IMG/VR virus record: IMGVR_UViG_3300002092_001237
Coordinates: 1-64,000 of that record
Direction: 5' to 3' (one strand)
DNA length: 64,000 bases
Source of the DNA: a virus
Positions 18,875 through 31,645 of this stretch are shown here, piece by piece. Position numbers and translations under genes: made by a program. The notes under the pieces were generated by a model. It searched no databases. It was given only the letters and a program-made list of their open reading frames with translations, and had not been told where the DNA came from. The stretch's first letter is position 1; each line of letters begins with the position of its first letter.

Positions 18875-19201
18875 TTAAGCAGCGCCGACTAGGGGAATTT
18901 TTCTTGGACGACCGCGCTTCTTTTTAATGGGTTCAGCGAACGCACCATTGTCGTCTGTTATCTGATTAATAACTGTACTGGTCTTACCGCCCTGCTGTTT
19001 AGCAAGTTCAAGATCTTGTTGTAGAGGGCTAACAAAAACAGGCTCCGGAGGAAGTGTTCCACCGTTGCCAGCACTGATTACAGGCATACCACCACCCGCA
19101 GGTATAGTGATATTGATAGGAATACTAATAGTGACTCCTTGACCGCCAGCAGTTGCTACTGCTTTACGTCCTGCTTCTGTAATGAATTCTTTTGCTCTCA
19201 T
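18875..19201 (-). CDS. Probable internal head protein; C-terminal AT-hook-like KKRGRPRK
   Basis: Leader MRAKEFITE resembles the T4 IP leader MKTYQEFIAE; KRGRPRK motif visible. Confidence 0.65.
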   Translation of the reverse strand: MRAKEFITEAGRKAVATAGGQGVTISIPINITIPAGGGMPVISAGNGGTLPPEPVFVSPLQQDLELAKQQGGKTSTVINQITDDNGAFAEPIKKKRGRPRKIPLVGAA

Positions 19202-19206
19202 GATTT

Positions 19207-19214
19207 TATTTATC
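19207..19214 (-). promoter_or_regulatory. Late promoter box GATAAATA in leaderless geometry
   Basis: GATAAATA-AAATC-ATG (5-nt spacer, no SD). Confidence 0.7.
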
Positions 19215-19239
19215 TTAACTCCGGGGCCCTATAATAGTA

Positions 19240-20166
19240 TTACGACAGTTCTTTAATAGTAAACGCAAACCATACATCTAGTTTAGTAGCGTTATCAACC
19301 CGGCGCATACAGAGTGTTAGCATATTGCGACTGCTGCCACCGTGTAGACTGGCCGGGCCCTCATCACCTGAAGTATTTTTACCAATAATGACACCGTTGT
19401 GTCTTAGATATGTTCCTGCCGGAACTGTGAATGTATTTCCTTGATTAGATGAGTATTTGTCTTGATACACTCTATACTGGCTATGGACACCAAAAGTAGT
19501 CCAGGCTGGTATAGCAGCACCAGAAATAGTTAGAGGTCCTTCATACCATTCATATATGATAGTACTTTGGTTAGCATTGTTGTTGCCGATTTCATATTCC
19601 ACAATCTTGATTATGTCTGCGGCATCAGCACTACCGTTTTGAAAACTGACCACAGGACGCATGGTGTCATCCATGGTCCAGCCACGGTTAGCATTTGCGG
19701 CATGATTATTAAAAGCATACAAGGTACCAGGATCTTCGTTGACTATTACATTAATAACATTAGTGGTGGATACTGATACTGTACCTGTAATAGATACAGG
19801 CCCAGTAATACCAACGGGACCAGTTATACCAACGGGACCAGTTATACCAACGGGACCAGTGACGCTAACCTGTTGTGTAGTTTGCCAAAATGTTCCAGTC
19901 ACTGATACTGTACCTGTGATAGATACAGGACCAGTAATACCAACGGGACCAGTTATACTAACTGTTCCGGTCTCTGTTAGATATACTGGTATAGACTGTT
20001 CGGCACTATTATTAACTCTGATATTATCTAATATATTAACATCACCAGTTATGGTTATACTATCACTTCCGAGGTTAACACGTATATGCGGAAGTCCATC
20101 TCGATATTCCATCGCATGATGTAAATTGTTTAGATTACGATCGAATGTATCGTGTTGATAAGTCAT
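19240..20166 (-). CDS. Virion structural protein with ITGPV repeats
   Basis: 308-aa ORF with GAGG RBS and TAATG coupling to the upstream gene; (V/I)TGPV(G/S) repeats. Confidence 0.7.
   Translation of the reverse strand: MTYQHDTFDRNLNNLHHAMEYRDGLPHIRVNLGSDSITITGDVNILDNIRVNNSAEQSIPVYLTETGTVSITGPVGITGPVSITGTVSVTGTFWQTTQQVSVTGPVGITGPVGITGPVGITGPVSITGTVSVSTTNVINVIVNEDPGTLYAFNNHAANANRGWTMDDTMRPVVSFQNGSADAADIIKIVEYEIGNNNANQSTIIYEWYEGPLTISGAAIPAWTTFGVHSQYRVYQDKYSSNQGNTFTVPAGTYLRHNGVIIGKNTSGDEGPASLHGGSSRNMLTLCMRRVDNATKLDVWFAFTIKELS
19772..19960. repeat. 18-nt tandem repeats within a duplicated block encoding ITGPVG/VSITG
   Basis: 'ataccaacgggaccagt' occurs three times in tandem and again near 19937; 'actgatactgtacctgt' is duplicated. 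Confidence 0.8.
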
Positions 20167-20537
20167 TAGACACCTCTATCGTTGAGATAATCTATGAACC
20201 TCTTGTGTGTTATCTGCTTATCATTTACAGTGTTATCGAATTCTTGATTTTTATATTCTGGATAAGCACTGGGATCTTTTACACGTATATCATGTGGATG
20301 CTTTGGTCCATTTATACCACCGCCCGCATCAACAGTCACACTATCGATACTTGAATAATGCTCATCTGGTGCAGTGCTATATTTCCCACCCTGTGATACT
20401 AAGTCTATGATCTGTTTGAAATGATTCATATCTGCTGAGGGAGCAGTTGCGATTATTTCTGCTGTAGCGACAGGCTGTGGATCGTCGATGTTATCGATGA
20501 GATCCAATATGTTGCGTATGATGTCTGTTGCTCTCAT
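20166..20537 (-). CDS. Hypothetical protein (possible internal or virion protein)
   Basis: Start revised to MRATDII at 20537, giving an ATGA overlap with the upstream stop. Confidence 0.65.
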   Translation of the reverse strand: MRATDIIRNILDLIDNIDDPQPVATAEIIATAPSADMNHFKQIIDLVSQGGKYSTAPDEHYSSIDSVTVDAGGGINGPKHPHDIRVKDPSAYPEYKNQEFDNTVNDKQITHKRFIDYLNDRGV

Positions 20538-21397
20538 GGTGTTGTTTTCCAAGGACGGTGTGGTTGTAATCCGCCTGTGTTGGCGTTATCGGTTATATCG
20601 TTTCCGCTATACTGTGTTGGCAGTAGTTCTATATCATAATTGTTGTATACTCGATAAAATACAGCACTTGTATTCGGACCAGGTCCAGTAGATGAAGTGA
20701 CAACTGAGCCAGTATTAGTAATTGTAAAATTATTCGTTGAACTATCTTTTAAGAAATTAGTACCGTTGTCTGTGTTTAGTAATAATTCTGTACCAGGTAT
20801 AGCAGTAAATGGGCTTTTCGATGGTGTAAAGTTTCCAGTATATACTGCTCTACCTTTTACAACTCTGAAGTTTGATATGTTGCCTATAAACAGAGCACCA
20901 TTGGCGGCATCTGCACCGATGTTTAATGTACCGTTGCCTATTGTACCTGCTTGAGTATCTGTTGTCACACTGGCAATACCGTTAATATATACCTTAACTG
21001 TGCTTTCACTGCGTACTACCGCAATGTGAGTCCAAGTATTGATAGGAACAGTACTGGTATAGGTTGTTGAGCCAAAGCCGTATAAGTTACTGCTTACTGA
21101 TGTTCCTGACAAAGCAAAAACATATCTATTAGCCGGATCTGGTCCTAAACAAAATAAACTGTGAGAACCTGTTACATTTGTAGGATAATACCAACCTTCA
21201 ACTGTAAAGTTGCCAGTAAAGGTAAATGCCGCATTAGTTACTGACAAGTAATTGCTACCGCTAAACTGTGCGCTACCGAAATTTATAGTACCATCGGCGT
21301 ATAATGAATACCCTTGACGTTTAGCCTGTGCTATATCGAGTTTAGCCTTTTGTCTCGCTTCTTTAGTTGACAGGGTTGATATACCGTTAGCACTCAT
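20534..21397 (-). CDS. LamG/concanavalin-A-like lectin domain virion protein
   Basis: 'FTVEGWYYP','NTWTHIAVVR','VYINGI','FIGNISNFRVVKG'; start revised to MSANGIS. Confidence 0.8.
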   Translation of the reverse strand: MSANGISTLSTKEARQKAKLDIAQAKRQGYSLYADGTINFGSAQFSGSNYLSVTNAAFTFTGNFTVEGWYYPTNVTGSHSLFCLGPDPANRYVFALSGTSVSSNLYGFGSTTYTSTVPINTWTHIAVVRSESTVKVYINGIASVTTDTQAGTIGNGTLNIGADAANGALFIGNISNFRVVKGRAVYTGNFTPSKSPFTAIPGTELLLNTDNGTNFLKDSSTNNFTITNTGSVVTSSTGPGPNTSAVFYRVYNNYDIELLPTQYSGNDITDNANTGGLQPHRPWKTTP

Positions 21398-21398
21398 C

Positions 21399-22304
21399 TT
21401 ATTTTCCTGTCGGTACACAGTTGTCTACTGTCTTACTACCTTTTTTCTTAGTGCCCATACGCTTATACCCGTCCCAACAGGCCTTACCGTCGACACCTTT
21501 TTGCTTAGTGCCTTCGTTGGTCTTCTTATCTTTATCCACTACGTTCTGATAATCCTTAGCAGATTTCTTTAGACCCTGTAGTGCGTCTTGTGCTCGCTCG
21601 TCACCTTTGTTGAGATCTTTACCTGTTGACTTTTTAACAGCACCGGCCATCTTATCCCAAGCACTTTTACGTGCTTCTTTTACAGCCATCGGTCTTGACT
21701 TTGGTGTTTCACCTGGCCATGCTGCTGCCTTTGCCTTTGCTGGATCGTTTCCAACATACTGTAGTTGATATCCTTTAGCACGAGCATGATGTTGCTCATT
21801 GTTCCACTGTTTAGCGAGGAACGGATATATACCGAGATGATTTGGACCAATTACTTTAAAATCATAGATGCCATGATTGTCATCTCCTACCTGTACGATC
21901 CTGGGTTCTGCTAAAGAACGCTGCTCGTTCATACCAGGTTCACGCTCTCCTGTGCTGAGCATGTATTCTGTGACACCAACCATCATACCCTTGGCCTGTG
22001 CTACTTTATCCTGTACCCACTCTGGGAGATTCTGATCATCTCCTAGAGCACTGTTTAACTGCTTACAGGCTCTGACGATCGTATGGAGATTAGTTTTTAC
22101 GCTATCACCTTCCATATCGTATTCACCAGGATCTAGATTCTCATCCATACCAACGGTTTTCTTATGTTTAGGATCCGTCTTCTTTTTCTTGTTAGGAATG
22201 ATTTTCTGCTGATACTTGCGATTCGCTAGACTGGCAGCAGCAGGACTGCGAGTTTTTGGCGGTGTGGGCTTTTTAGCCTCAGTTAAAAGGTCAGTGATCT
22301 TCAT
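21399..22304 (-). CDS. Modular probable internal head protein
   Basis: Leader MKITDLLTE; 'LPEWVQDKVAQA' module; C-terminal 'CWDGY...GTKKKG..VDNCVP' module familiar from large-phage proteins. Confidence 0.65.
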   Translation of the reverse strand: MKITDLLTEAKKPTPPKTRSPAAASLANRKYQQKIIPNKKKKTDPKHKKTVGMDENLDPGEYDMEGDSVKTNLHTIVRACKQLNSALGDDQNLPEWVQDKVAQAKGMMVGVTEYMLSTGEREPGMNEQRSLAEPRIVQVGDDNHGIYDFKVIGPNHLGIYPFLAKQWNNEQHHARAKGYQLQYVGNDPAKAKAAAWPGETPKSRPMAVKEARKSAWDKMAGAVKKSTGKDLNKGDERAQDALQGLKKSAKDYQNVVDKDKKTNEGTKQKGVDGKACWDGYKRMGTKKKGSKTVDNCVPTGK

Positions 22305-22494
22305 AAAGATATTTATCTATATGACGATCTCGTGCCCGCTCTTCTTTCTTTATGCTGGTACGTATCTTCTTAGCCTTGGCTAAAACACGCCTTAATAAAC
22401 TCTTTGTTAGTCCGTTTTGGAAATGTTCTTCACCGATATAGAATACCGCGAGACGCTTTGTCTCGATAGTGCGTAATGGTCTGAATAGGAGCAT
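22291..22494 (-). CDS. Small basic hypothetical protein
   Basis: 67 aa, strong AAGGAG RBS, fills the gap between neighbours. Confidence 0.6.
   Translation of the reverse strand: MLLFRPLRTIETKRLAVFYIGEEHFQNGLTKSLLRRVLAKAKKIRTSIKKEERARDRHIDKYLYEDH
22310..22317 (-). promoter_or_regulatory. Late promoter box GATAAATA in leaderless geometry
   Basis: GATAAATA-TCTTT-ATG(22304). Confidence 0.65.
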
Positions 22495-22512
22495 AATGCT
22501 ACTCCTTGTATG

Positions 22513-23352
22513 TTAGTGTTTTTCGCGTCCTCGACGCATATTAGCCTGCCAATGCGCTAATTGTTTTTTTCGCGGACTAGCAGACTTACTGTGGGTGATT
22601 TTGTCTAACTGAGATAAAGATGCTTTTTTCGGAATACCCTGTCGATGACTGTCTCCTTTATCTTCGGGATGTCTCCCGTCTGCGAAGTTCTCTTCTAGAA
22701 ATGCTAGATAAGATTCTTTTAGAATGATTAACTGCTCTAGTTCCTGGATGCTCTCGCAATTCCATTTACGTAGTGACTTATTGATACGACTGTTTGGATC
22801 ATGTGCTGTCTTAGCACTGGTTCTGCTTTTCTTCATGCCCTTCATGCGGGCGCAGAAACTCTTGCGGCGTTTACTTGCCTTACTACCTTTTTTAAGTTTG
22901 CTTGGCTTAGTAGTGACTGCTGTCTGTAGTTTGCTACCAGGATGCTCCCTGCGATAACTTGCTACACCTTTTTTATTGAGTCCACCTTCGGGATTCTTAC
23001 CAGCCTTGCGTTGCCATGCTGCTGATTCGTCTACTTCTTTTTCTACTTTAGCAAGTTTAGAATAATAGTGTAGATCCTCACCGAGATGATCTAGTGCTAT
23101 CTCTTTAGCCACACTATGCTTATTAGTATGCTCCATCTCGACCTTGACGCCTTTTTTCAGTTCCATCTCGACTGCTAGGATGCTGGTCTTGTATTTCTCT
23201 GCTAGGTCTGCTACTGTTGGAGTTTCTTTATCCAGTAGTTTACCAGTTTCTTCGTTCAATCTATATTCCAAACGTCCACGATAGTCGGTTGGTTTCTTCA
23301 CTGACTCTTTTACTGATTTTGCTTGTGGTTTAGATAGATCTGAGAATCTCAT
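22513..23352 (-). CDS. Modular basic probable internal protein (DUF5661-like plus other phage modules)
   Basis: 'ELKKGVKVEMEH...AKEIALDHL.ED..YYSKL' (DUF5661-like); 'AWQRKAGKNPEGGLN...RRKSFCARM' module; 'ENFADGRHP...HWQANM' module. Confidence 0.65.
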   Translation of the reverse strand: MRFSDLSKPQAKSVKESVKKPTDYRGRLEYRLNEETGKLLDKETPTVADLAEKYKTSILAVEMELKKGVKVEMEHTNKHSVAKEIALDHLGEDLHYYSKLAKVEKEVDESAAWQRKAGKNPEGGLNKKGVASYRREHPGSKLQTAVTTKPSKLKKGSKASKRRKSFCARMKGMKKSRTSAKTAHDPNSRINKSLRKWNCESIQELEQLIILKESYLAFLEENFADGRHPEDKGDSHRQGIPKKASLSQLDKITHSKSASPRKKQLAHWQANMRRGREKH

Positions 23353-23358
23353 GATTGA

Positions 23359-23505
23359 TTAGCGGCCCTGACCGCGATATGGCTTGAAGTTTGCTTTAGT
23401 CTGCTTGTTCATGCTACTGAACTTAATATTACCTATACCCTGGCTAGTACCTTTGTTAATAGCGATTCTTTTTTGTATAACTGTTTGTTTAGGTGCTTTA
23501 GCCAC
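23359..23505 (-). CDS. 48-aa basic phage protein ending KPYRGQGR
   Basis: Below the ORF-track cutoff; GTG start with AGGAGA RBS; MAKAPKQTVIQKRIAINKGTSQGIGNIKFSSMNKQTKANFKPYRGQGR. Confidence 0.8.
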   Translation of the reverse strand: MAKAPKQTVIQKRIAINKGTSQGIGNIKFSSMNKQTKANFKPYRGQGR

Positions 23506-23521
23506 GGTAATCTCCTAATGG

Positions 23522-23698
23522 TTATTTTTTCTTCTTAGTAGGAGCTCTTTTAACTATACTCCCACCAGTTAATAAATTGTTGCCTTTAGCGGCGCTGGTT
23601 TTAACTTTTGTATTCGGATACATGGGGGTACCTATCGACACATTTGCCGAAGTAGTAGCCCCCATTGATGCCATTTCTATTAATTCTTTTATTTTCAT
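23522..23698 (-). CDS. 58-aa probable internal head protein
   Basis: Below the ORF-track cutoff; MKIKELIEMASMGATTSANV...RAPTKKKK; ATG 5 nt after GATAAATA. Confidence 0.75.
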   Translation of the reverse strand: MKIKELIEMASMGATTSANVSIGTPMYPNTKVKTSAAKGNNLLTGGSIVKRAPTKKKK

Positions 23699-23703
23699 AA
23701 AAT

Positions 23704-23711
23704 TATTTATC
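23704..23711 (-). promoter_or_regulatory. Late promoter box GATAAATA in leaderless geometry
   Basis: GATAAATA-ATTTT-ATG(23698). Confidence 0.7.
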
Positions 23712-23713
23712 TA

Positions 23714-24529
23714 TTAACTCTTGCACTGTGCCTTCTTAGCATCGGCAGTCTTCTTTAGATCAACTGGCCATACTGCTGTAGCAGCCTTGGTCTTATCGTG
23801 TCCAGGTGGAACAGCGAAAGTGATACCAGTTAACTGCTCGATCTTAGCAACACTGACTAAGTTCTTTGGCAAGTCAATTTCCTGCTTCTCTAACTGTGCG
23901 AAAGTGAATGCCAATACTTCTTTAGTCGAATTATTGATCACGATCTTGTAGAGGAAGTCTGGAACGACTACACCAGTTCCGATAGTCTTACTCTTACCAA
24001 CAGTATAGATGTTCCCAGCATATACAGTATAGTTTGTATTGTTGCCATAGGCCCAAGCACGTACATTGCTTTCTAGGCTCTTCCATATACCACGATTTAG
24101 ATTTGGAAGCTGCGGGCTCATATTACTCATTAAGAATGATTCATATTCAACCTGAACATCCCAACTCATATCACCGTCTGGAGCAAGATGTCCTTGATCG
24201 TACCCTGTACCAGCATAATCTGCAGGTTTAGCACTTTTGGCACCTAGGATAGAATCTGCTACGAACGCATTGGTACGTTCTACACAGCCGATGGCATTTT
24301 TTGGAGTTAGTGTATAGGCTACCCAGACTGGAATCTTAGCAGCGTCGTCGTGTAGAACAGCATAAGCGGTGTGGCATAACACTGTTGTATTTGGCTTGTT
24401 AGTTGATGGAACACCGAACGGCAACTGTGCAGCACATTCGGAGATTGGTTTGTTGGGCTTCTGATCCCATGCGAAACTCATTCCTACAAAACTTAGGAAT
24501 AGTCCTAGCGATAAAAGTATTTTTTTCAT
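23714..24529 (-). CDS. DNA/RNA non-specific endonuclease (NucA/EndoG family) with a Sec signal peptide
   Basis: 'YDQGHLAP' (DRGH motif), 'SNMSPQ', 'LNRGIW', 'VPDFLYK'; N-terminus MKKILLSLGLFLSFVGMSFA. Confidence 0.9.
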   Translation of the reverse strand: MKKILLSLGLFLSFVGMSFAWDQKPNKPISECAAQLPFGVPSTNKPNTTVLCHTAYAVLHDDAAKIPVWVAYTLTPKNAIGCVERTNAFVADSILGAKSAKPADYAGTGYDQGHLAPDGDMSWDVQVEYESFLMSNMSPQLPNLNRGIWKSLESNVRAWAYGNNTNYTVYAGNIYTVGKSKTIGTGVVVPDFLYKIVINNSTKEVLAFTFAQLEKQEIDLPKNLVSVAKIEQLTGITFAVPPGHDKTKAATAVWPVDLKKTADAKKAQCKS

Positions 24530-24582: not shown

Positions 24583-25119
24583 TTACTTCTCTTTGGTAAA
24601 ATGTTTCTTGAGTTCGTTTAAGGTATGATTAACGTGACCGTCTTCATGTTTAATACCGATGCCACCGGCTGCTTTCCAGGACTCGATATTTTTACCATAA
24701 TCATCAATTAGGATATTTGGAGTACCGTCTGGTTGTGTAGCATGTGCTGCTTTGTTATGTGTGATAATAACTTCGCTCGGTGCGAACGCATGTAGATGTT
24801 TTTTAACCCACAATCTCTTTTGTGGCTCACTATTCTTATCACCAGTTAGTGGTGTACTGCAGATATTATAATGTCCAGCGTATTTTTTAATACCGCCTAG
24901 CAGTCTACTAGCATCGGACAGTGGAGGTAAGTCTATCCAGAATGTAGGATGAGCACGGATCAAGTCTAGTGCTTTTTCGATATGGCTGATATCTTTATAA
25001 TGATTAACGCCGGACAGTTTGCTCCATTCTCCAAAGAAATCTGCTAGTACACCATCCATATCAACATAGACGATTGGTTTACCGTGTTCGTTTATATCGT
25101 TAACTTCGTATATAAACAT
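24583..25119 (-). CDS. HAD-superfamily 5'(3')-deoxyribonucleotidase (NT5C-like)
   Basis: 'VYVDMDGVLADF','ICSTP','QKRLWV','ILIDD'; start revised to MFIYEV (TGATG overlap, GGAGA RBS). Confidence 0.85.
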   Translation of the reverse strand: MFIYEVNDINEHGKPIVYVDMDGVLADFFGEWSKLSGVNHYKDISHIEKALDLIRAHPTFWIDLPPLSDASRLLGGIKKYAGHYNICSTPLTGDKNSEPQKRLWVKKHLHAFAPSEVIITHNKAAHATQPDGTPNILIDDYGKNIESWKAAGGIGIKHEDGHVNHTLNELKKHFTKEK

Positions 25120-25766
25120 CAACCAATCTCCTGATATTCGATCCATTCGTCGGGGGATACACCGTGTTTTTTAACGAATGCATCGTGAAGGTCTTTACCT
25201 GTTAGTTTCTTTTCTTTGCAGATTTTAGTCATCATAGTGTCAATTTCTTTGTAAGTGTGTTTACGTTTATTAGTTGCTAGTAGTGTGTTTTCTAACTCAG
25301 TCACAGCAGACTTTAACACCTTAGGGTCTATCTTGTCAATCCTGGGCAGTGGTTTATTTTCGGATAGAACACCAATCTCGAAAGCCTCTGGAAAGCGTTT
25401 ATCGAAGTGTCTCATGATGACACCTGCACGTGAGTGTGCTTCGTTTTCGATTTCACTACCTGTATCGCCGCTGTCTGATTTAATACGTCCTTCTAAAGAT
25501 TGTTTATAATGTACTAGTTCGTGTGCTAGTGTACGCATAACATCGATCGGATGGCGATTGTTTATCTCTACCTGTATCTCAGTAGTCTCGTTATTAAAAC
25601 TACCGAAACTGTGAAATGCCTTATGATGCTCACCTTTAGTTAATAATTTAATAGGTGGTAGTTTATCTAAGTCAAGTTCCTTCTTGCAGATCTTTAACAA
25701 TTCTTTTAGATAGTGTACAGTCTTCTTAGGGTCAAATCGCTGACCTGCTACTTCATCCATTCTCAT
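25119..25766 (-). CDS. HExxH zincin-like metallopeptidase plus a C-terminal helical module
   Basis: 'TLAHELVH' with downstream 'EIENEA'. Confidence 0.75.
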   Translation of the reverse strand: MRMDEVAGQRFDPKKTVHYLKELLKICKKELDLDKLPPIKLLTKGEHHKAFHSFGSFNNETTEIQVEINNRHPIDVMRTLAHELVHYKQSLEGRIKSDSGDTGSEIENEAHSRAGVIMRHFDKRFPEAFEIGVLSENKPLPRIDKIDPKVLKSAVTELENTLLATNKRKHTYKEIDTMMTKICKEKKLTGKDLHDAFVKKHGVSPDEWIEYQEIG

Positions 25767-25990
25767 CGTTTACGACCCCTAAAGCCAGAGGGCATCTGTC
25801 CCGTTAATCCTGGACGATCAAACCATAGAGCAAACCATTCATCTGTACCTGGTCTGATATTCTTTTCACGTTCTATCTTTTTCTTTTCAGTACCAGTCAT
25901 TGATATATTACTACCACCGAGCGGACTTTTAATTCCCGGGCTGTTCTGTTGGATGCCTGCTAATCTTCTTAGTTCGTTGAGTTCATCCAT
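25763..25990 (-). CDS. Small conserved-type phage protein
   Basis: 'ELRRLAGI','NIRPGTDEWFALWF'; coupled by overlaps on both sides. Confidence 0.7.
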   Translation of the reverse strand: MDELNELRRLAGIQQNSPGIKSPLGGSNISMTGTEKKKIEREKNIRPGTDEWFALWFDRPGLTGQMPSGFRGRKR

Positions 25991-27948
25991 TACATGCCTC
26001 CAACTAAGTCGCCAGCCTTAGCGGGCTTGTTAGCCTTGGGACCTTTATTGCGCCATTGTCCTGCTTTGCCTAGTTTGTTTTTCTTTGAACCAGTAAAGTT
26101 GCTAGCAGGCATAAATGCTTCCGCTACTGCCGGTTGTGGCGCTGCTGCTGGTGCTGCTGCTGGTGCTGCCGCGGGCTCTTGTATACCCAGTCCTTCGCGT
26201 GTAGCTTGATATAAACTCTTACCGTTAACTTGTATGTTGCTATTAACACCGGTGGCCTTTTGGAAACCTTGTTCATTACCTTCAGTGGCATACTTACGTG
26301 CTAGGCTTCCGCTGATACCTGATACGTTAGTTGTATCACCGTCGCGTTCACCACTGCTGACGAATTTCAATACGACGTGCTCACGACCATTTGCACCACG
26401 AGCATTGTCGGTTGTGCGTACTGGTCCACTGTTCCATCCGTTCAATAGTTTCTCGATACTACCGGCAGCCTTGCCTAATCGATCACTACCACCGATAAAA
26501 GTCATATGACGGAAGCCTTTATCATATAACCAGTTAGCAGCGTAGATAGGACCCTGTACATAATCAGTGACAATGTTCTTAGCAAACTGTGGATAAATCT
26601 TCTTGATAAATTCTGCTTTAGTAGCAGGATCTAGAGGATCATCTGGTGCCTTGTTGCTGTTGCTGAGGAAGATATAACTGTTAGTTCCACCAGTTGCTAC
26701 AGTCTTTTCCATAACCAGTTTGTGGCCAATAGTTGGGGGATTCATACGACCGAAACAGAAAGCAGCCATGGGCATCTTGCTCTTAGCAGCCACTTCTTCA
26801 TCTGGTACTCTGTGTTTAGCGAAGTTAGCCTTACTGAATCCTAATCTATCGATCAGTTTTAGTTTATCTTTACCTGCTCCGAATACATAACCTTCGTGTG
26901 CTGTATTTCCATCTGTTATAGCAACGACTTCGCTGCCCTGTAGTTGTGTATCTATCTGGCGCTTGATGTGTAGTTTAAGTTCAGTGACTGCGGCCCACAT
27001 GCTCCATACACCTAATAGTCCCGGAGCACCACCATCTTGTTGATAAAGCCAGCCGTCTTGTTTAGTACCTAACATCTTAACAGCCATCGAATCTGTTAAT
27101 CTATTCTTTAGGAATTCCATGAAGCGAGGCACGATATTGGTCTGTACATCATCTTCTTCTAACATACTTGTAATGAAAGGACCCATGGCAGTTAATACTG
27201 CTTTACCTTTTATCGCAGTCAAGTCAGTCATAAACTTTTCAACTGCTGACTTGTTCTGCTGTATGATAGTGTTAGTCTGTGCCAGTAGATCTTTATTAAC
27301 AGATACCTTTGGCTTGTTCTTTATCTCACCTACTAAGAACGTGATACCACCGTTCTCTGGTAATCCTTTTAATCCTACTAATGGTTTATCAGCAGAACCT
27401 AGTCCGGAGATGATAGTGTGTACTGCTATACCGCCAACGCTCTTGCTGATCCGGTCACCTAATTCGCCTGCTATCTCTACACGATATTCTACTGTGTTTG
27501 GCTTGAACACGAAGAACCCATCCTTAGTTGGCGGAGTTCCGGTCCACATAAGATCGCCCATGAAGTATTGATCTTTAATACCTGGAACTATCTTTTCTAG
27601 CACAGGGCGTAATACTGCTTCGTGTTCCCAGAGGCTAGTACGATTAGCACCACGTCCTTCGTCGTAGGCTCTGATAGTCGTAAAGTCCATTTTACCATTA
27701 GCGACTTTTTCGTACATATGTTTATCCATAAACACTAGTGCGCCGCTCTTATCGCGTCCAAACACTACAGCAGGAAATCCATCCCATTTAATAGTGACTG
27801 TTTCAGTATTCTTACTCAATCCTGCTAGTTCTTTAGCCACACGTTCAGCACCAGCGGCACCGTCTTTGATGATAAGGTCTTCGGGGTGGTCTATGCCTTC
27901 CAGCACAACTGTTTTCTTAACTGGGGCGATCATTTCAAACAAGTTCAT
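25990..27948 (-). CDS. Fusion of an RNA-ligase-like nucleotidyltransferase (DUF6267-like) and an HxGH cytidylyltransferase-like domain
   Basis: Ligase motifs 'TIKWDG' (I), 'FMGDL' (III-like), 'HEGYV' (IV), 'KLKLIDR' (V); C-domain 'FGRMNPPTIGH' and 'ISGSLAR'. Confidence 0.78.
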   Translation of the reverse strand: MNLFEMIAPVKKTVVLEGIDHPEDLIIKDGAAGAERVAKELAGLSKNTETVTIKWDGFPAVVFGRDKSGALVFMDKHMYEKVANGKMDFTTIRAYDEGRGANRTSLWEHEAVLRPVLEKIVPGIKDQYFMGDLMWTGTPPTKDGFFVFKPNTVEYRVEIAGELGDRISKSVGGIAVHTIISGLGSADKPLVGLKGLPENGGITFLVGEIKNKPKVSVNKDLLAQTNTIIQQNKSAVEKFMTDLTAIKGKAVLTAMGPFITSMLEEDDVQTNIVPRFMEFLKNRLTDSMAVKMLGTKQDGWLYQQDGGAPGLLGVWSMWAAVTELKLHIKRQIDTQLQGSEVVAITDGNTAHEGYVFGAGKDKLKLIDRLGFSKANFAKHRVPDEEVAAKSKMPMAAFCFGRMNPPTIGHKLVMEKTVATGGTNSYIFLSNSNKAPDDPLDPATKAEFIKKIYPQFAKNIVTDYVQGPIYAANWLYDKGFRHMTFIGGSDRLGKAAGSIEKLLNGWNSGPVRTTDNARGANGREHVVLKFVSSGERDGDTTNVSGISGSLARKYATEGNEQGFQKATGVNSNIQVNGKSLYQATREGLGIQEPAAAPAAAPAAAPQPAVAEAFMPASNFTGSKKNKLGKAGQWRNKGPKANKPAKAGDLVGGM

Positions 27949-27952
27949 TGAT

Positions 27953-27960
27953 TATTTACC
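27953..27960 (-). promoter_or_regulatory. Late promoter box GGTAAATA in leaderless geometry
   Basis: GGTAAATA-ATCA-ATG(27948). Confidence 0.55.
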
Positions 27961-28823
27961 TAGTCACTGCTTGAAGGGAACAAGTGTTTTGTCTTGGCCC
28001 ATTTCTGTGGGTCTTTTTGTAGGGCATCTCTAATGCCGCTTATGCTAGATAGATCACGTGCTGTTGCTGAGGGACCTAGCAATATCTTAGCGATCGCTGC
28101 TTTATCGATAGCGACAACCTCACCATTATCTCTATTAACTAATCCCTTATCGGGGCTGTACTGTAGATTACCTTTTTCTTCACCCGTTTTAGCATCGATA
28201 AACGTAGTGCTGCTAGCGATCTTAGCCAGTGTTGGATATATGTCTGTAAACAACTGTCCGCCACGCATCCCAGGATCACGAGTAAAGTCATGTGTATGTA
28301 GTTCCCAAGCACTGCGTGGACGCACGATGAGATCCACTGAATGATGTTTACCACCTGCGGAATACTGTACAGTTAGCGTACCCGGATCTGTTGGAAATCC
28401 ATTGTCTGTCATGTGATTCGCCAGTGCCCACTTGCTAGCACTCATCTGTAGTTTAGCGGTCTTAGCAGGATCGGCTAGAGCATTTGCCATAGCCTTTGGA
28501 CCCATTGGCTTTTCTTGTGCTGCGTTATATTCTTCTACGTCTACTGGAAACTTTTCTAGTAGTTCCTGTGGATCGATCATTATATCGATATCGCCACTGT
28601 CATCGCGTCCACCGCCACCGTAATGATGACTTGGATCGAAACTGCCAGCACCACCAGCAGTCCATCCTGCTGTGATTCCTGCTTTTTTCAATACAGGATC
28701 CATAGCAGCCTTGGCTTTTAGGAAATCTTCTTTATTAACACGTGAGACTTCAACACCCTGTTTAGCAAGGCGTTTACCACTCTCAGTCTTGATCGTACGA
28801 TCGAATAATTCACACAATAGCAT
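27960..28823 (-). CDS. Pol-beta-superfamily nucleotidyltransferase
   Basis: 'GAGSF...SGDIDIM' (GS plus DxD) and a third Asp in 'SVDLI'; start revised to MLLCELF, 5 nt after GATAAATA. Confidence 0.75.
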   Translation of the reverse strand: MLLCELFDRTIKTESGKRLAKQGVEVSRVNKEDFLKAKAAMDPVLKKAGITAGWTAGGAGSFDPSHHYGGGGRDDSGDIDIMIDPQELLEKFPVDVEEYNAAQEKPMGPKAMANALADPAKTAKLQMSASKWALANHMTDNGFPTDPGTLTVQYSAGGKHHSVDLIVRPRSAWELHTHDFTRDPGMRGGQLFTDIYPTLAKIASSTTFIDAKTGEEKGNLQYSPDKGLVNRDNGEVVAIDKAAIAKILLGPSATARDLSSISGIRDALQKDPQKWAKTKHLFPSSSD

Positions 28824-28828
28824 GAGCG

Positions 28829-28836
28829 TATTTATC
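28829..28836 (-). promoter_or_regulatory. Late promoter box GATAAATA in leaderless geometry
   Basis: GATAAATA-CGCTC-ATG(28823). Confidence 0.7.
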
Positions 28837-29070: not shown

Positions 29071-29099
29071 ATTATAGCATCAAGTTATAGAAGTGTCAA
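29071..29099 (-). promoter_or_regulatory. Consensus sigma70 promoter with extended -10
   Basis: TTGACA(29099-29094)-N17-TATAAT(29076-29071), preceded by TGc. Confidence 0.8.
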
Positions 29100-29541
29100 C
29101 CTCGACAGGCTTAACCTTACCCCATTCTATCCAATTAAACAATCGTTCTAATAGATAATATGCGATAGCATTAGTGATGAATTTTAAACTCGCCAATAAG
29201 ATGGCCATGGCATCAGAATCTGCTACGAAAGTTCTCGCCAATAAGATCAATATTATCCAAGCAGTGATACGATAGATTATGGCTTTGGTTATGCTGCGCC
29301 AATTGGTATCCTTACCTTGATTGTTGCGGTGCCAATTGATAAAAAGCCATAGTCTGTCATAAAGGTAGTAGTGTATCGCACCGCTGATTAATGCGATTAA
29401 TCCAAAACTGATCGCCTGTAACAGGGTCCCACCAATCAACAACGCTAACAATACTGCGTTAACTGTGCTGAATATTCTATAGACTGCTGCTTTAGTTAAT
29501 GTGCGAAGATGCGTTTCTGTGACTGTTACTGTACTAAACAT
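29080..29541 (-). CDS. Membrane protein with two DUF2061-like repeats
   Basis: Two copies of '(E/D)TxxRxxxKAxxYRI...YYLxxRLxxxIxW' with four hydrophobic helices. Confidence 0.7.
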   Translation of the reverse strand: MFSTVTVTETHLRTLTKAAVYRIFSTVNAVLLALLIGGTLLQAISFGLIALISGAIHYYLYDRLWLFINWHRNNQGKDTNWRSITKAIIYRITAWIILILLARTFVADSDAMAILLASLKFITNAIAYYLLERLFNWIEWGKVKPVEVDTSIT

Positions 29542-30863
29542 ATAGTTTCCTCATATTTGCCGTTTCGTGTTGGTATAGCATCGGGAAATTCTGTTACTGT
29601 AACCTGAGGATTAAACAGTAAGAATTTAGGGACCAATGCCTTTATCTGCTCTCGTTGCTCTTCAGTTAGTGGGGTGTCTACTACTAGTCTATACTCCACA
29701 TGATCTATGCTGTGTTGGACCATCTGCCATTGTCTTACAGGTGCTATCTTAGGAATATCATACATCCCTGCCCTCGGCCAGAAACGTGTACCATCTGGTC
29801 GTATGAATAAGTTACGTTCTCTGCCTATTATTTTGTGTAGTGTCGGTAATGTTCTTCCACAGGTACAAGCGGACCCCTGTTCGGCATAATCACCGATATC
29901 GTAACGTATCACAGGACTGGCAAAGTTTTGTAGATCAGTTAGCACCACACGTCCAACTTCACCCGGAGCACATTCATTTCCATTCTCATCTATTATTTCT
30001 ACGATCACTGTTTCTGACATGATGTGGAATTTGTGTTGTTCGGGGCATTGTATAGCGATACAGCCTGTTTCGCTGCTGCTATAATTGTCTTCTACTTCTA
30101 ATCCTGTTAGTGCTTTTAGCCTCTTGCGTAGTTCATCGTGGCAATTATCACCAATGTTCCGTATGTGTTTGAGATCTAAATCGTAGCCTGTTCTTTCCCA
30201 GGATGTCGCAAGTCCCTGTAGCACACCACCGTGTGCCATCAATATATCGGGTTGGAATTCTCTTAATTTCGCTAGATGGAATTCGATAGTTTCACCTACG
30301 TTTGCCGCCATTCCTTTGCCAGTCTTGTAGAACCTACCAATGGGATCTCCCCAATTATCTATGATAGCATATCCATCGAGCGTGGCACGTATAGATGCCA
30401 TCTTGTATTCCCACTTCCTACCGTTCCATTCATGATCTCTGAACACATGTGCTGCCCAGAACAGTTGATTGATATCGGTTCGATTGAATGTAATTGGTTG
30501 TCCTGTGCTACCACTAGTAGACACACTACCGATGGGTTTATGACTTTCTGGTATTTCTTCGCACATAAATTTACTACCAGCCGATTGTATATCGTGTTTC
30601 TTTATGGGATTTAATTTCTTTAGATCGGTTAAAGAGAAGATATCTTGGATTTTTAGATTCTGTGCCGTTAGTCTATTTTGGAAATGCGGAGTCTTGTTGC
30701 TGTGATGTGTTAATAGATACTTTAGTTGTAGTTCCTGACCTTCCTGTAATAGATCCAACGGCAAGCGTTCGGTTTTTCTCATCTCTGCGACTAACGCCAT
30801 TATAGTCGCATGTCTACCGATAAGCACGGGGGGAAATACTAACCCAGATATATTACTGATCAT
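29526..30863 (-). CDS. Phenylacetate-CoA ligase (PaaK/CapK)-like adenylate-forming enzyme
   Basis: 'STSGSTGQP' phosphate loop, 'NYSSSETG', 'VGRVVLTDL', 'IRYDIGD', 'IIGR'. Confidence 0.85.
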   Translation of the reverse strand: MISNISGLVFPPVLIGRHATIMALVAEMRKTERLPLDLLQEGQELQLKYLLTHHSNKTPHFQNRLTAQNLKIQDIFSLTDLKKLNPIKKHDIQSAGSKFMCEEIPESHKPIGSVSTSGSTGQPITFNRTDINQLFWAAHVFRDHEWNGRKWEYKMASIRATLDGYAIIDNWGDPIGRFYKTGKGMAANVGETIEFHLAKLREFQPDILMAHGGVLQGLATSWERTGYDLDLKHIRNIGDNCHDELRKRLKALTGLEVEDNYSSSETGCIAIQCPEQHKFHIMSETVIVEIIDENGNECAPGEVGRVVLTDLQNFASPVIRYDIGDYAEQGSACTCGRTLPTLHKIIGRERNLFIRPDGTRFWPRAGMYDIPKIAPVRQWQMVQHSIDHVEYRLVVDTPLTEEQREQIKALVPKFLLFNPQVTVTEFPDAIPTRNGKYEETICLVQ

Positions 30864-31645
30864 CTCATCTTCCTAAAGGTTAATATAGGAAAGTATTCGC
30901 AGAGTTCGTAATCACTGGTCTCATCGAACCCTACTTCTACAGCATAATCGGGTATTATGGCCTTCCATTGGTCTCGAGTAGGATAACTGGTTAGCATCTT
31001 GCCATTCTTATAACTATCGAAACTGCGATTGATGCTGTCTAGTTCCCAACCTGTTTCACTTGCCAATGCTTCACGATCTGGAAACAGTTCATTAAACACA
31101 TCTAGTTTGCGTTGGCTAGGAACGTTTACGCCGTAAGTTCCTGCGATGTACATATTGAGATAACAACGCCAAGCATCTAAACACATTGTTCGTGTAGCGG
31201 TAATAACATTACCCTTAGTAGGAGTATGGTTAGGACGAGTAAAAACTCTAAATGCTGCTACCCCACCGGGTTCTAGCCAATCTAAACAGCGTCTTAGTAG
31301 CAGGTTAGTTTCCTCGTGGAATCGTACCATATTGAGACTACCGTCACCTACGATAGCACTGTAGTGATTAGCATATAGATCTACATCAAACCAATCACTT
31401 CGTGTTACTTGCTTATGATCAGTATCGCCAGGCCAGAAACTGTCTATCATAGACTGTTCTCTATCTACAGCATGTATGATTGGAAACGCTGTGTGTAGTT
31501 CAGGTGTAACTCCTAATAGCAGTATACGCTCTGTTTTATCGCCGATCAGTTCTTGTTGTTTGCTAATGCTACCCTCATGCGGACGCATGGGTGCTGTTAT
31601 TTTAGACCAATGTTTAGTACGTTCCGCCCAATGTGAATCTGTCAC
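30860..31645 (-). CDS. Class I SAM-dependent methyltransferase-like protein
   Basis: 'ILLLGVTPE' (degenerate motif I), 'AVDRE..MI', 'SDW', 'IVGDGSLN', 'LEPGG'; GTG start with AGGTG RBS; TTAAATA box at 31670-31676. Confidence 0.7.
   Translation of the reverse strand: MTDSHWAERTKHWSKITAPMRPHEGSISKQQELIGDKTERILLLGVTPELHTAFPIIHAVDREQSMIDSFWPGDTDHKQVTRSDWFDVDLYANHYSAIVGDGSLNMVRFHEETNLLLRRCLDWLEPGGVAAFRVFTRPNHTPTKGNVITATRTMCLDAWRCYLNMYIAGTYGVNVPSQRKLDVFNELFPDREALASETGWELDSINRSFDSYKNGKMLTSYPTRDQWKAIIPDYAVEVGFDETSDYELCEYFPILTFRKMR

What the first reader, a model, noticed from the sequence alone, without database searches (positions are those of the whole stretch)
24583..28823. Candidate capsid-packaged nucleotide/RNA-repair enzyme kit: Pol-beta NTase, ligase-like/HxGH fusion, HExxH peptidase and HAD phosphatase
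Seen: five adjacent late-promoter genes carry three different nucleotidyl-transfer folds (GS..DxD..D; KxDG ligase motifs I/III/IV/V; TxGH Rossmann), plus a HAD nucleotidase and a zincin. Most begin with a short acidic leader ending in xxE. Established: T4 Pnk/Rnl1 (HAD phosphatase plus KxDG ligase) repair tRNA cut by host anticodon nucleases; HxGH enzymes include NMNAT; Pol-beta NTases include CCA-adding and cyclic-nucleotide enzymes. Inference: these enzymes may be ejected with the DNA as a pre-made counter-defence system for RNA end healing, sealing and tailing, or for NAD/cofactor rescue. This is my top candidate for an undescribed system in the window.
Basis: partly seen in the sequence, partly recalled or inferred. 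Interest (0 to 1): 0.8.

Follow-up and report, generated by a model that had tools for sequence, protein, structure and literature searches.

The report
Head-tagged polymerase-ligase enzyme operon of jumbo phage
A giant T4-related phage carries a late operon for a miniature repair-type DNA polymerase, an unstudied ligase-shaped enzyme fused to a cofactor-type nucleotidyltransferase, and a small zinc protease; these start with the short tag that phage T4 uses to load proteins into its head, so they are probably injected with the DNA as a strand fill-and-seal kit, though no activity has been measured.

Summary

The tools refine the identities:
- The "Pol-beta NTase" is closest in fold to family-X DNA polymerases, across palm and thumb (Foldseek E 4e-5; Z 9.1).
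- The "ligase-like" domain is Pfam DUF6267. Its model matches RNA/DNA ligase adenylyltransferase domains (top 21 of 22 rows, Z 5.3-7.4) and keeps KWDG, EGYV and a motif-V lysine.
- The HxGH domain belongs to the phage "cytidyltransferase" families.

The polymerase-like and ligase/HxGH genes stay adjacent down to 23-31% identity. Other phages fuse them into one 888-residue protein, so they work together.

A leader (MKIxELLxE) resembles the T4 IPII/IPIII capsid-targeting sequence. It sits on three of the five proteins and on neighbours. In a 245-kb relative, all 10 leader genes lie in one 9.6-kb block. Relatives encode gp21-type protease and gp23-type capsid protein.

Packaging is inferred. Substrate (DNA or RNA) is unresolved. 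The tRNA-repair and NAD readings are not excluded, but nothing supports them specifically. The HAD is a deoxyribonucleotidase type with no leader in relatives.

This scan reached the same reading in at least ten other genomes. I found no paper on it.

The parts
28829..28836 (-). GATAAATA late-promoter-like box, 5 nt upstream of the ATG at 28823
   Evidence: Sequence read. The motif is enriched 30:6 on the coding strand.
27960..28823 (-). Miniature family-X-polymerase-like nucleotidyltransferase, 287 aa. Leader MLLCE(LF); catalytic candidates D78, D80 and D164.
   Evidence: AF2 model, pLDDT 92.6. The Foldseek top 50 rows are all Pol beta or Pol lambda, E 4e-5 to 4.5e-4. VIA: Pol beta Z 9.1 over 166-189 residues; ASFV Pol X Z 8.1 over 156 of 176 residues. 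Invariant residues.
27953..27958 (-). TAAATA box, 4 nt upstream of the ATG at 27948
   Evidence: Sequence read.
27898..27948 (-). N-terminal leader of the 652-aa protein (residues 1-17, MNLFEMIAPV...). The pattern MxLxE[LM]F is conserved in fused orthologues and absent from stand-alone DUF6267 proteins.
   Evidence: Alignment. pLDDT is below 50 for residues 1-17.
26809..27894 (-). DUF6267 domain (residues 19-380): ligase-like lysine nucleotidyltransferase fold with KWDG (K54), GDLMW (D132), PNTVEY, AVHT, HEGYV and K364-x-x-x-R368. A helical insert (about 219-336) takes the place where ligases have an OB domain.
   Evidence: Pfam PF19782, E 1e-30. AF2 model, pLDDT 85. VIA top 21 of 22 rows are RNA/DNA ligases, Z 5.3-7.4. 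Beyond the family itself, all named BFVD hits at E 0.01-0.13 are RNA ligases or a kinase/ligase.
26167..26784 (-). HxGH (here TIGH) cytidylyltransferase-like nucleotidyltransferase domain, residues 389-594, with ISGSLAR
   Evidence: phrog_3041 at 1e-27 and phrog_395 at 2e-15. In the ESM Atlas, 29 of 30 look-alike clusters carry PF01467. Pfam itself does not reach threshold on this sequence.
25993..26166 (-). Ala/Pro-rich linker and basic C-terminal tail (residues 595-652). The last ~40 residues are conserved in close relatives.
   Evidence: tblastn of residues 612-651 gives 72-87% identity in L005, L006, L009 and L016.
25763..25990 (-). 75-aa conserved small protein (LRRLAGI and GTDEWF motifs). 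Its start overlaps the upstream stop (TAATG).
   Evidence: No family match.
25119..25766 (-). HExxH zincin-like protein, 215 aa. The leader is MRMDE here and MKIRDLLFE in relatives. The core of about 128 aa is conserved. An extra C-terminal module (139-212) is shared with phrog_10346 and with the L048 fusion protein.
24583..25146 (-). NT5C-type HAD 5'(3')-deoxyribonucleotidase-like protein (DMDGV). The likely start is the ATG at 25119, which overlaps the upstream stop (TGATG).
   Evidence: Pfam NT5C, E 5e-12; phrog_2643, E 5e-24. Junction read. Orthologues have no leader.
18875..23698 (-). Neighbouring leader-bearing late genes. Their N-termini are MRAKEFITEA at 19201, MKITDLLTEA at 22304, MRFSDLSK at 23352 and MKIKELIEMA at 23698. 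They belong to the same presumed internal-protein block.

Best explanation
This is a late, translationally coupled operon of a jumbo phage of the T4 superfamily.

Its conserved core is a polynucleotide 'extend-and-seal' enzyme set with two parts:
- a miniature family-X-type polymerase/nucleotidyltransferase (palm plus thumb, DxD...D);
- a DUF6267 enzyme, a previously unrecognised branch of the lysine-nucleotidylating ligase superfamily that is RNA-ligase-like and has no OB domain, fused to an HxGH nucleotidyltransferase.

The two gene products act together. They are neighbours in distant phages and form one polypeptide in others.

The polymerase-like protein, the ligase/HxGH fusion and the HExxH protein carry a leader of about 9 residues (M-K/R-I-x-E/D-L-L-x-E) like the T4 capsid-targeting sequence. 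The inferred route is as follows. The leader docks them on the scaffolding core of the prohead. The gp21-type prohead protease cuts after L/I-x-E. The mature enzymes are then ejected with the DNA, where they would fill, tail and seal broken strands before phage genes are expressed. Incoming phage DNA is the most probable substrate.

Shown: the folds, motifs, co-conservation, fusion, leader pattern and clustering, and the presence of gp21/gp23 homologues in relatives.

Inferred: packaging, cleavage, every enzymatic activity and the substrate.
For: Folds:
- The polymerase-like model matches Pol beta/lambda (Foldseek E 4e-5) and matches Pol beta, TdT, Pol lambda, Pol mu and ASFV Pol X at Z 7.9-9.1 over 156-189 residues. 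RNA-specific NTases align over only about 95-117 residues.
- The top VIA rows for the DUF6267 model are ligase adenylyltransferase domains, and motifs I, IV and V are conserved.

Coupling:
- The NTase lies directly upstream of DUF6267-HxGH in about 20 related IMG/VR loci.
- The same order holds in a distant phage at 31% and 23% identity.
- The natural 888-aa fusion P0158 contains all three domains. P0185, P0195 and P0197 also join the NTase family to DUF6267.

Leader:
- T4 IPII and IPIII begin MKTYQEFIAEA. Window proteins begin MRAKEFITEA, MKITDLLTEA, MKIKELIEMA, MNLFEM and MLLCEL.
- In the 245-kb relative G002, all 10 leader matches among 270 ORFs lie within 108990-118576.
- The leader is absent from stand-alone DUF6267 proteins. 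It is kept in relatives whose genes have ordinary 5' leaders.
- Relatives encode a gp21-type protease (93 bits) and a gp23-type capsid protein (275 bits).
- The capsid protein's presumed maturation junction, YLAE|SATAGSTSAGN, resembles the junction IITE|TATAGSTSASN of a small leader protein.
- The T4 rules (a 10-residue CTS; cleavage after L/I-x-E) are taken from PMC9026906.

Precedent: ASFV packages Pol X, ligase and AP endonuclease in the virion (PMC12172490).
Against: - There are no virion proteomics for this phage or any relative, so packaging rests on sequence analogy alone.
- The ligase assignment rests on middling structural scores (Z up to 7.4; Foldseek PDB E at least 0.08). Profile searches against PDB sequences and against T4 Rnl1 and Rnl2 found nothing.
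- The second lysine of motif V is not conserved, and there is no OB domain.
- No role for an HxGH nucleotidyltransferase in strand repair is known.
- The polymerase-like protein has no 8-kDa lyase domain, and no Pfam Pol X family reaches threshold.
- In cyanomyophages the DUF6267 and cytidyltransferase genes sit in the replication module without a leader, so their ancestral role need not involve the virion.
- The HAD and the 75-aa protein have no conserved leader.
Confidence: 0.5

Rival explanations
1. RNA end-healing, tailing and sealing. The ejected or late enzymes would repair tRNA or mRNA cut by host anticodon nucleases or other ribonuclease defences. The Pol-beta-type enzyme would act as a 3' tailing or CCA-like enzyme, and DUF6267 would act as an RNA ligase.
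For: - The best structural neighbours of DUF6267 are RNA ligases: NgrRnl Z 7.4, Trl1 6.7, T4 Rnl2 6.5, REL1 6.2 and T4 Rnl1 6.2.
- All named viral structure hits outside the family are RNA ligases or a kinase/ligase.
- There is no OB domain, as in RNA ligases.
- In pelagiphage HTVC008M, a Zeta-toxin/AAA_33 P-loop kinase lies between the DUF6267 and cytidyltransferase genes.
Against: - The polymerase-like protein aligns best and longest with DNA polymerases X, not with CCA-adding enzymes (Z 4.6-5.9) or TUTases, where only the palm aligns.
- The differences in Z between RNA and DNA ligases are under about 1 to 2 and so are not decisive.
- The HAD is NT5C-type, not Pnk-type (PHROG polynucleotide kinase only at E 0.005).
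- No kinase is present in this operon.
Confidence: 0.2
2. The enzymes are not packaged. They act late inside the cell on replicated phage DNA, for example by sealing and filling nicks before packaging. This would supply the DNA ligase that T4-like cyanophages and these phages otherwise lack. The leader would serve another purpose, such as regulated proteolysis, localisation or assembly.
For: - Cyanomyoviruses have no g30 ligase homologue, and a distant undetected homologue has been suggested as one possibility (PMC2984593).
- DUF6267 is widespread in T4-like marine phages, next to uvsX and gp41.
- No PF01068 or PF01653 ligase was found in G000, G001 or G002, which are 25-70% complete.
- P-HM2 DUF6267 has no leader.
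Against: - The leader is specifically added in the jumbo-phage clade and matches the T4 capsid-targeting sequence and the gp21 site pattern.
- The genes lie among tail-fibre and other late structural genes, under late-type promoters.
- The genome records are incomplete, so the absence of a canonical ligase is weak evidence.
Confidence: 0.2
3. Nucleotide-cofactor or signal chemistry rather than strand repair. The HxGH domain would be an NMNAT-like adenylyltransferase that restores NAD or makes or destroys a nucleotide signal. The other two folds would act on nucleotides or proteins, not on polynucleotides.
For: - The large cytidyltransferase of HTVC008M gives weak hits to NMN and NaMN adenylyltransferase models (E 1e-3 to 2e-3, far below the cut-offs).
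- Some homologues carry a pterin-4a-carbinolamine dehydratase domain at the C-terminus.
Against: - No NAMPT, Nudix or PRPP-type partner is present here.
- The window's own HxGH domain hits no NCBIfam model.
- Fusion to a Pol X-like and a ligase-like domain is most simply explained by a polynucleotide substrate.
Confidence: 0.1

Closest known systems
Phage T4 internal proteins IPI, IPII, IPIII and Alt, which use a capsid-targeting sequence and are processed by gp21
   Same: - Short N-terminal leader of similar sequence. T4 has MKTYQEFIAE (read from NC_000866); this phage has MRAKEFITE, MKITDLLTE and MKIKELIE.
- An L/I-x-E site at positions 7-9.
- Late promoters.
- gp21- and gp23-type head genes in relatives.
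- Unrelated cargo proteins share only the leader.
   Different: The cargo here is a polymerase-like enzyme, a ligase-like/HxGH enzyme and a zincin, none of which is known as T4 cargo. In G002 ten leader genes form one block. Nothing has been shown at the protein level.
African swine fever virus Pol X with its DNA ligase and AP endonuclease (a virion-packaged base-excision repair set)
   Same: A miniature Pol X is paired with a ligase. The window protein aligns to 156 of the 176 residues of the AsfvPolX chain at Z 8.1. The ASFV repair enzymes are packaged in the virion core (PMC12172490).
   Different: - The host is bacterial.
- The ligase partner is RNA-ligase-like, has no OB domain, and is fused to an HxGH domain.
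- No AP endonuclease was identified.
- There is no sequence-level membership in Pol X families.
ATP-dependent RNA ligases (Naegleria NgrRnl/Rnl5, T4 Rnl2, T. brucei REL1, T4 Rnl1, fungal Trl1 ligase domain)
   Same: The adenylyltransferase fold matches at Z 6.2-7.4 over 166-199 residues. A KxDG lysine, an EGYV-type motif IV and a motif-V lysine occur in the same order.
   Different: - No detectable sequence similarity.
- A helical insert of about 120 residues lies between motifs IIIa and IV.
- There is an extra conserved HPED motif.
- The second motif-V lysine is not conserved.
- The domain is fused to, or encoded next to, an HxGH enzyme.
Cyanomyophage gene pair 'hypothetical protein (T4-GC 71)' plus 'cytidyltransferase', for example P-HM2 PHM2_162/163 and the S-PM2 fused form
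   Same: Same two families (DUF6267 E 1e-124 and CTP_transf_like in P-HM2), in the same order, and already fused in S-PM2.
   Different: The cyanophage genes lie in the replication/recombination module. In P-HM2 they have no leader, and there is no Pol X-like neighbour.

Membership tests
Covalent (lysine) nucleotidyltransferase superfamily: ligases and capping enzymes | Motif I, KxDG, with the nucleotidylated lysine | tested here: met
   K54-W-D-G57 is at least 90% conserved in 43 homologues, including stand-alone forms at 24-30% identity.
Covalent (lysine) nucleotidyltransferase superfamily: ligases and capping enzymes | Motifs III, IIIa, IV (EG) and V (KxK), in that order | tested here: inconclusive
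   D132 (GDLMW), PNTVEY, H-E352-G353-Y-V and K364 are conserved in order. The second motif-V lysine (K366) is not conserved, and motif III has Asp instead of Glu.
Covalent (lysine) nucleotidyltransferase superfamily: ligases and capping enzymes | Adenylyltransferase-domain fold | tested here: met
   AF2 model, pLDDT 85. VIA top 21 of 22 rows are RNA/DNA ligases, Z 5.3-7.4, 161-199 residues, rmsd 3.9-5.2. Foldseek against the PDB is only weak (E at least 0.08).
Covalent (lysine) nucleotidyltransferase superfamily: ligases and capping enzymes | Formation of a covalent enzyme-NMP intermediate | not testable with these tools
   This needs labelling with [alpha-32P]ATP, GTP or NAD, with a K54A control.
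ATP-dependent DNA ligases (T4 gp30 type) | OB-fold domain after the adenylyltransferase domain, and a Pfam DNA_ligase_A_M match | tested here: not met
   No PF01068 hit anywhere in G000-G002. After motif V the model goes straight into the linker and the HxGH domain, and the only insert is helical.
Family X DNA polymerases | Palm with G-[GS]...DxD...D and a following thumb subdomain | tested here: met
   G57, G60, D78, D80 and D164 are invariant or nearly so. Foldseek top 50 rows are all Pol beta/lambda, E 4e-5 to 4.5e-4. VIA Z 9.1, rmsd 3.3, 166 residues against Pol beta 142-335.
Family X DNA polymerases | Sequence-family membership (Pfam DNA_pol_B_palm/thumb), 8-kDa dRP-lyase domain and HhH fingers | tested here: not met
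   No Pfam hit for the window protein. Only 1 of 26 family members touches PF14792, at E 0.04. Only about 50 residues precede the palm, as in the minimal ASFV enzyme.
Family X DNA polymerases | Templated dNTP incorporation | not testable with these tools
   This needs primer-extension or gap-filling assays with dNTPs against rNTPs.
HxGH (HIGH) cytidylyltransferase-like nucleotidyltransferases (PF01467 clan) | (H/T)xGH and ISxTxxR-type motifs, and a family-model match | tested here: inconclusive
   GRMNPPTIGH and ISGSLAR are present in the sequence. PHROG cytidyltransferase families match at E 1e-27 and 2e-15, and 29 of 30 ESM Atlas look-alike clusters carry PF01467. Pfam and NCBIfam themselves give no hit on this sequence. 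The distant homologue in L048 has the canonical GHTGH.
T4-type capsid-targeted internal proteins | N-terminal leader of about 10 residues resembling the T4 capsid-targeting sequence, with an L/I-x-E cleavage site | tested here: met
   compared with the T4 IPII/IPIII sequences. The rules come from PMC9026906.
T4-type capsid-targeted internal proteins | gp21-type prohead protease and gp23-type head in the same phage | tested here: inconclusive
   Neither lies in the 107.7-kb record that holds the window, which is 25% complete. Both are present in the related records G001 and G002: PF03420 at 93 bits and PF07068 at 275 bits.
T4-type capsid-targeted internal proteins | Presence of the processed protein in virions | not testable with these tools
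   No isolate and no proteome exist for this clade.
NT5C-type HAD 5'(3')-deoxyribonucleotidases | Pfam NT5C above the gathering score, and the DxDGV motif I | tested here: met
   46.5 bits against 24.8; DMDGVLADF is in the sequence; phrog_2643 at E 5e-24.
T4 Pnkp-type end-healing enzyme | P-loop 5'-kinase domain joined to the HAD 3'-phosphatase | tested here: not met
   The protein has 178-187 aa and no kinase domain. The PHROG polynucleotide kinase match is only E 0.005.
Zincin metallopeptidases | HExxH plus a third ligand, and a family-model match | tested here: inconclusive
   HELVH and a downstream ENEA are conserved in five orthologues. Only sub-threshold hits were found: Peptidase_M91 at E 0.03 and XopG at E 0.004.

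The most novel reading that the evidence does not exclude
A widespread clade of T4-related jumbo phages loads a strand-repair machine into its capsid through a T4-type targeting peptide and injects it with the genome. The machine consists of a mini Pol X, a new ligase family (DUF6267) and a coupled HxGH nucleotidyltransferase. This would be a bacterial-virus counterpart of the virion-packaged repair enzymes of ASFV and giant viruses. The same DUF6267 family would also be the long-missing ligase of T4-like cyanophages and pelagiphages.
Probability: 0.3. Interest if true: 0.8.

Novelty: new variant of a known kind. Interest (0 to 1): 0.6.

Why it matters
It would assign a biochemical identity, ligase-type adenylyltransferase, to DUF6267. 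This family is conserved across marine and freshwater T4-like phages, and I found no paper on it.

It offers a candidate for the ligase reported as absent from cyanomyoviruses.

It extends the T4 idea of capsid-targeted cargo from small inhibitors and Alt to a multi-enzyme nucleic-acid processing set. If the enzymes are injected, they act before any phage gene is expressed. That bears on how large phages survive DNA damage or host nucleases at entry.

It also supplies compact polymerase and ligase enzymes for testing.

Tried and rejected
- phmmer of both large proteins against PDB sequences found nothing. The A1 profile against PDB sequences gave only chance hits to ribosomal protein S20.
- hhalign of the DUF6267 profile against T4 Rnl2 and Rnl1 gave probability below 1%.
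- Pfam, PHROG and NCBIfam gave no hit for the polymerase-like protein. A Pfam scan of 26 family members gave only stray hits.
- tblastn of the polymerase-like protein against 50,697 GenBank phage records found no match. megablast of the region also found none.
- The genes upstream of DUF6267 in P-HM2, HTVC008M and DLP6 are not relatives of the polymerase-like family.
- Long C-terminal extensions of homologues add only a pterin dehydratase domain in some.
- The literature search for 'DUF6267' found 0 papers. Cyanophage cytidyltransferase papers gave nothing functional. The PA5oct omics paper does not mention these proteins.
- The idea that the leader is a by-product of near-leaderless mRNAs was rejected. 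Relatives keep the peptide behind ordinary 5' leaders.


Full report
**Context**

The window is the first 64 kb of a 107,689-bp IMG/VR virus record that CheckV rates 25% complete. Almost all genes are on the minus strand. The region around the finding holds tail-fibre, collagen-like and baseplate-type genes, a ClpA-like ATPase, DnaJ and a clamp loader. Close homologues of the central gene lie on contigs of 305-381 kb. Related records of 214 and 245 kb encode a T4 gp21-type prohead protease (PF03420, 93 bits) and a gp23-type major capsid protein (PF07068, 275 bits). The element is therefore a jumbo phage of the T4 superfamily.

**Observation**

The five ORFs are as described.

| Window position | Size | What it is |
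|---|---|---|
| 27960-28823 | 287 aa | Pol-beta-superfamily signature: G57, G60, D78-x-D80 and D164, invariant or nearly so in 26 relatives |
| 25990-27948 | 652 aa | Pfam DUF6267 (19-378, E 1e-30) plus PHROG 'cytidyltransferase' families (389-594, E 1e-27 and 2e-15) |
| 25763-25990 | 75 aa | No family match |
| 25119-25766 | 215 aa | HELVH, with only sub-threshold zincin hits |
| 24583-25146 | 187 aa | NT5C-type HAD |

- The motif ATAAATA is strongly strand-biased: 30 on the coding strand and 6 on the other.
- GATAAATA lies 5 nt before the ATG at 28823, and TAAATA lies 4 nt before the ATG at 27948.
- The following four genes overlap stop-to-start (TAATG, ATGA, TGATG), so the five form one or two late transcription units.

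**What the proteins are**

*The 287-aa protein.* It gave an AlphaFold2 model with pLDDT 92.6.
- The 50 best Foldseek PDB matches are all Pol beta or Pol lambda (E 4e-5 to 4.5e-4, about 250 aligned columns).
- The Foldseek-independent aligner ranks Pol beta (Z 9.1, rmsd 3.3-4.7, 166-189 residues), TdT, Leishmania Pol beta, Pol lambda, Thermus Pol X, ASFV Pol X (Z 8.1, 156 of 176 residues) and Pol mu at the top.
- TUTases, poly(A) polymerases, CD-NTases and CCA-adding enzymes align only over the palm, about 90-123 residues.
- It is therefore a palm-plus-thumb mini Pol X-like enzyme. It lacks the 8-kDa domain and belongs to no curated family.

*The DUF6267 domain.* Its model has pLDDT 85.
- It matches the adenylyltransferase domains of RNA and DNA ligases in 21 of the top 22 rows (Z 5.3-7.4).
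- In the viral structure library, all named hits after the family itself are RNA ligases or a kinase/ligase.
- The scores are middling, and sequence-profile searches do not connect the family to any solved ligase.
- The conserved residues nevertheless fall in the ligase order: KWDG, GDLMW, PNTVEY, HEGYV and K364/R368. They lie on the expected strands, with a helical insert of about 120 residues between them.
- I rate the fold assignment at about 0.8 and catalytic competence at about 0.6.

*The C-terminal domain.* It has TIGH and ISGSLAR, matches phage cytidyltransferase families, and resembles PF01467 clusters. Its substrate cannot be read from sequence.

**Do the genes belong together?**

Yes for the core.
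- The polymerase-like gene sits immediately upstream of the DUF6267-HxGH gene in essentially every related IMG/VR locus. The HExxH, 75-aa and HAD genes lie within about 8 kb in the more distant set.
- A much more distant phage (31% and 23% identity) keeps the same two genes overlapping by ATGA. There the motif is the canonical GHTGH.
- The 888-residue protein P0158 joins all three domains in one chain: the polymerase-like part at 8-281, DUF6267 at 296-660 and then HxGH, with 56% identity to the window protein. Three other long proteins also join the two families.
- In cultured T4-like phages (cyanomyophages, pelagiphage HTVC008M, Methylophilales phage Melnitz, Stenotrophomonas phage DLP6), DUF6267 lies next to cytidyltransferase genes near uvsX and gp41. 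In S-PM2 the two are fused. In HTVC008M a P-loop kinase lies between them.

**The leader**

- T4 IPII and IPIII begin MKTYQEFIAEA.
- In T4 the first 10 residues suffice for loading into the prohead, and gp21 cuts after L/I-x-E (PMC9026906).
- In this genome the pattern M-[KR]-x-x-[EDQ]-[LF]-[IL]..E occurs on 9 of 129 ORFs, 8 of them between 18.9 and 28.8 kb.
- In the 245-kb relative it occurs on 10 of 270 ORFs, all inside one 9.6-kb block that contains the same enzymes.
- The leader is conserved on orthologues of the polymerase-like, DUF6267 and HExxH proteins. It is missing from stand-alone DUF6267 proteins and disordered in both models. It persists where the gene has a normal 5' leader.
- The capsid protein of the relative has the junction YLAE|SATAGSTSAGN, which resembles the junction IITE|TATAGSTSASN of a small leader protein.
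- HTVC008M and DLP6 versions of DUF6267 and the large cytidyltransferase also start with such peptides; the P-HM2 versions do not.
- The HAD and the 75-aa protein have no conserved leader.

**Mechanism**

The most economical reading is an extend-and-seal pair (Pol X-like plus ligase-like), with an attached HxGH activity of unknown role. The pair would be targeted to the prohead and ejected with the DNA.

- ASFV offers a precedent for a packaged Pol X/ligase set (PMC12172490; PMC5330486 was listed).
- An RNA substrate remains possible, because the ligase neighbours are mostly RNA ligases.
- A purely intracellular role as the ligase that cyanomyoviruses appear to lack (PMC2984593) is also open. 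No canonical ligase was found in three incomplete records.
- Nothing specifically supports tRNA repair, NAD rescue or action against cyclic-nucleotide defences.

**Relation to earlier work in this scan**

Notes on at least ten other genomes reached the same reading: leader-tagged Pol X-like, DUF6267 and HIGH enzymes, sometimes fused. I had reached the fold assignments, the synteny and the missing-ligase idea before reading them. I then checked the fusion claim myself. One note says that tag-bearing relatives occur in purified virions. I could not verify that.

**Verdict**

This is a real, conserved and unpublished enzyme module with a plausible delivery route. It is a new variant of the T4 internal-protein theme and a first functional lead for DUF6267. 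Activity, substrate and packaging are all untested.

Noticed in passing
window 19201-19213, 22304-22316, 23698-23710 and 28823-28835 (minus strand); also 88929-88943 of the whole record: In five leader-bearing genes, (G)ATAAATA ends exactly 5 nt (7 nt in one) before the ATG, with no Shine-Dalgarno sequence. If transcription starts as at T4 late promoters, these mRNAs would be leaderless or nearly so. Other late genes have the box 16-30 nt upstream with a GGAG.
   Followed up: partly
window 23522-23698 (minus strand); G002 118340-118576 and 189544 onward: The small leader proteins continue, just after the leader, with A/T/G/S-rich sequence (MASMGATTSANV here; TATAGSTSASN in G002). This resembles the sequence after the presumed maturation site of the gp23-type capsid protein of the relative (LAE|SATAGSTSAGN).
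   Followed up: partly
window 23714-24529 (minus strand): A DNA/RNA non-specific endonuclease (Endonuclease_NS, E 1e-41) sits inside the leader-gene block. It has a signal-peptide-like N-terminus (MKKILLSLGLFLSFVGMSFA) instead of a leader, and its own ATAAATA box lies 22 nt upstream.
   Followed up: no
window 25119-25352 (HExxH protein residues 139-212); L048 about 8740-8966: The C-terminal module of the HExxH protein (...KEIDTMMTKICKEKKLTGKDLHDAFVKKHGVSPDEW...) recurs at the C-terminus of the distant DUF6267-HxGH protein in L048 and in phrog_10346. That PHROG family also contains the DUF6321 module of the neighbouring gene 22513-23352. Small modules seem to be shuffled among these proteins.
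   Followed up: no
L038 9728-10744 (G002 109728-110744): The relative's leader block holds a second leader-tagged protein, 338 aa, with a Pol-beta-superfamily signature (PTGSS...YGDIDLQM). hhalign to the family is weak (E 0.0016). It has no counterpart in the 107.7-kb record that holds the window.
   Followed up: partly
L038 15638-16309 and 16596-17729 (G002): Two further leader-tagged proteins of the relative give sub-threshold hits to VanY (E 0.003) and glycoside hydrolase 19 (E 9e-5). These are cell-wall enzymes of the kind expected for ejected proteins.
   Followed up: no
homologues P0070, P0072 and P0082: Some DUF6267-HxGH proteins carry a pterin-4a-carbinolamine dehydratase domain (PF01329, E 3.5e-16) in a long C-terminal extension.
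   Followed up: no
window 29080-31645 (minus strand): Immediately upstream of the operon lie a double DUF2061 membrane protein and two more overlapping ORFs of 445 and 261 aa. These two were not scanned here.
   Followed up: no
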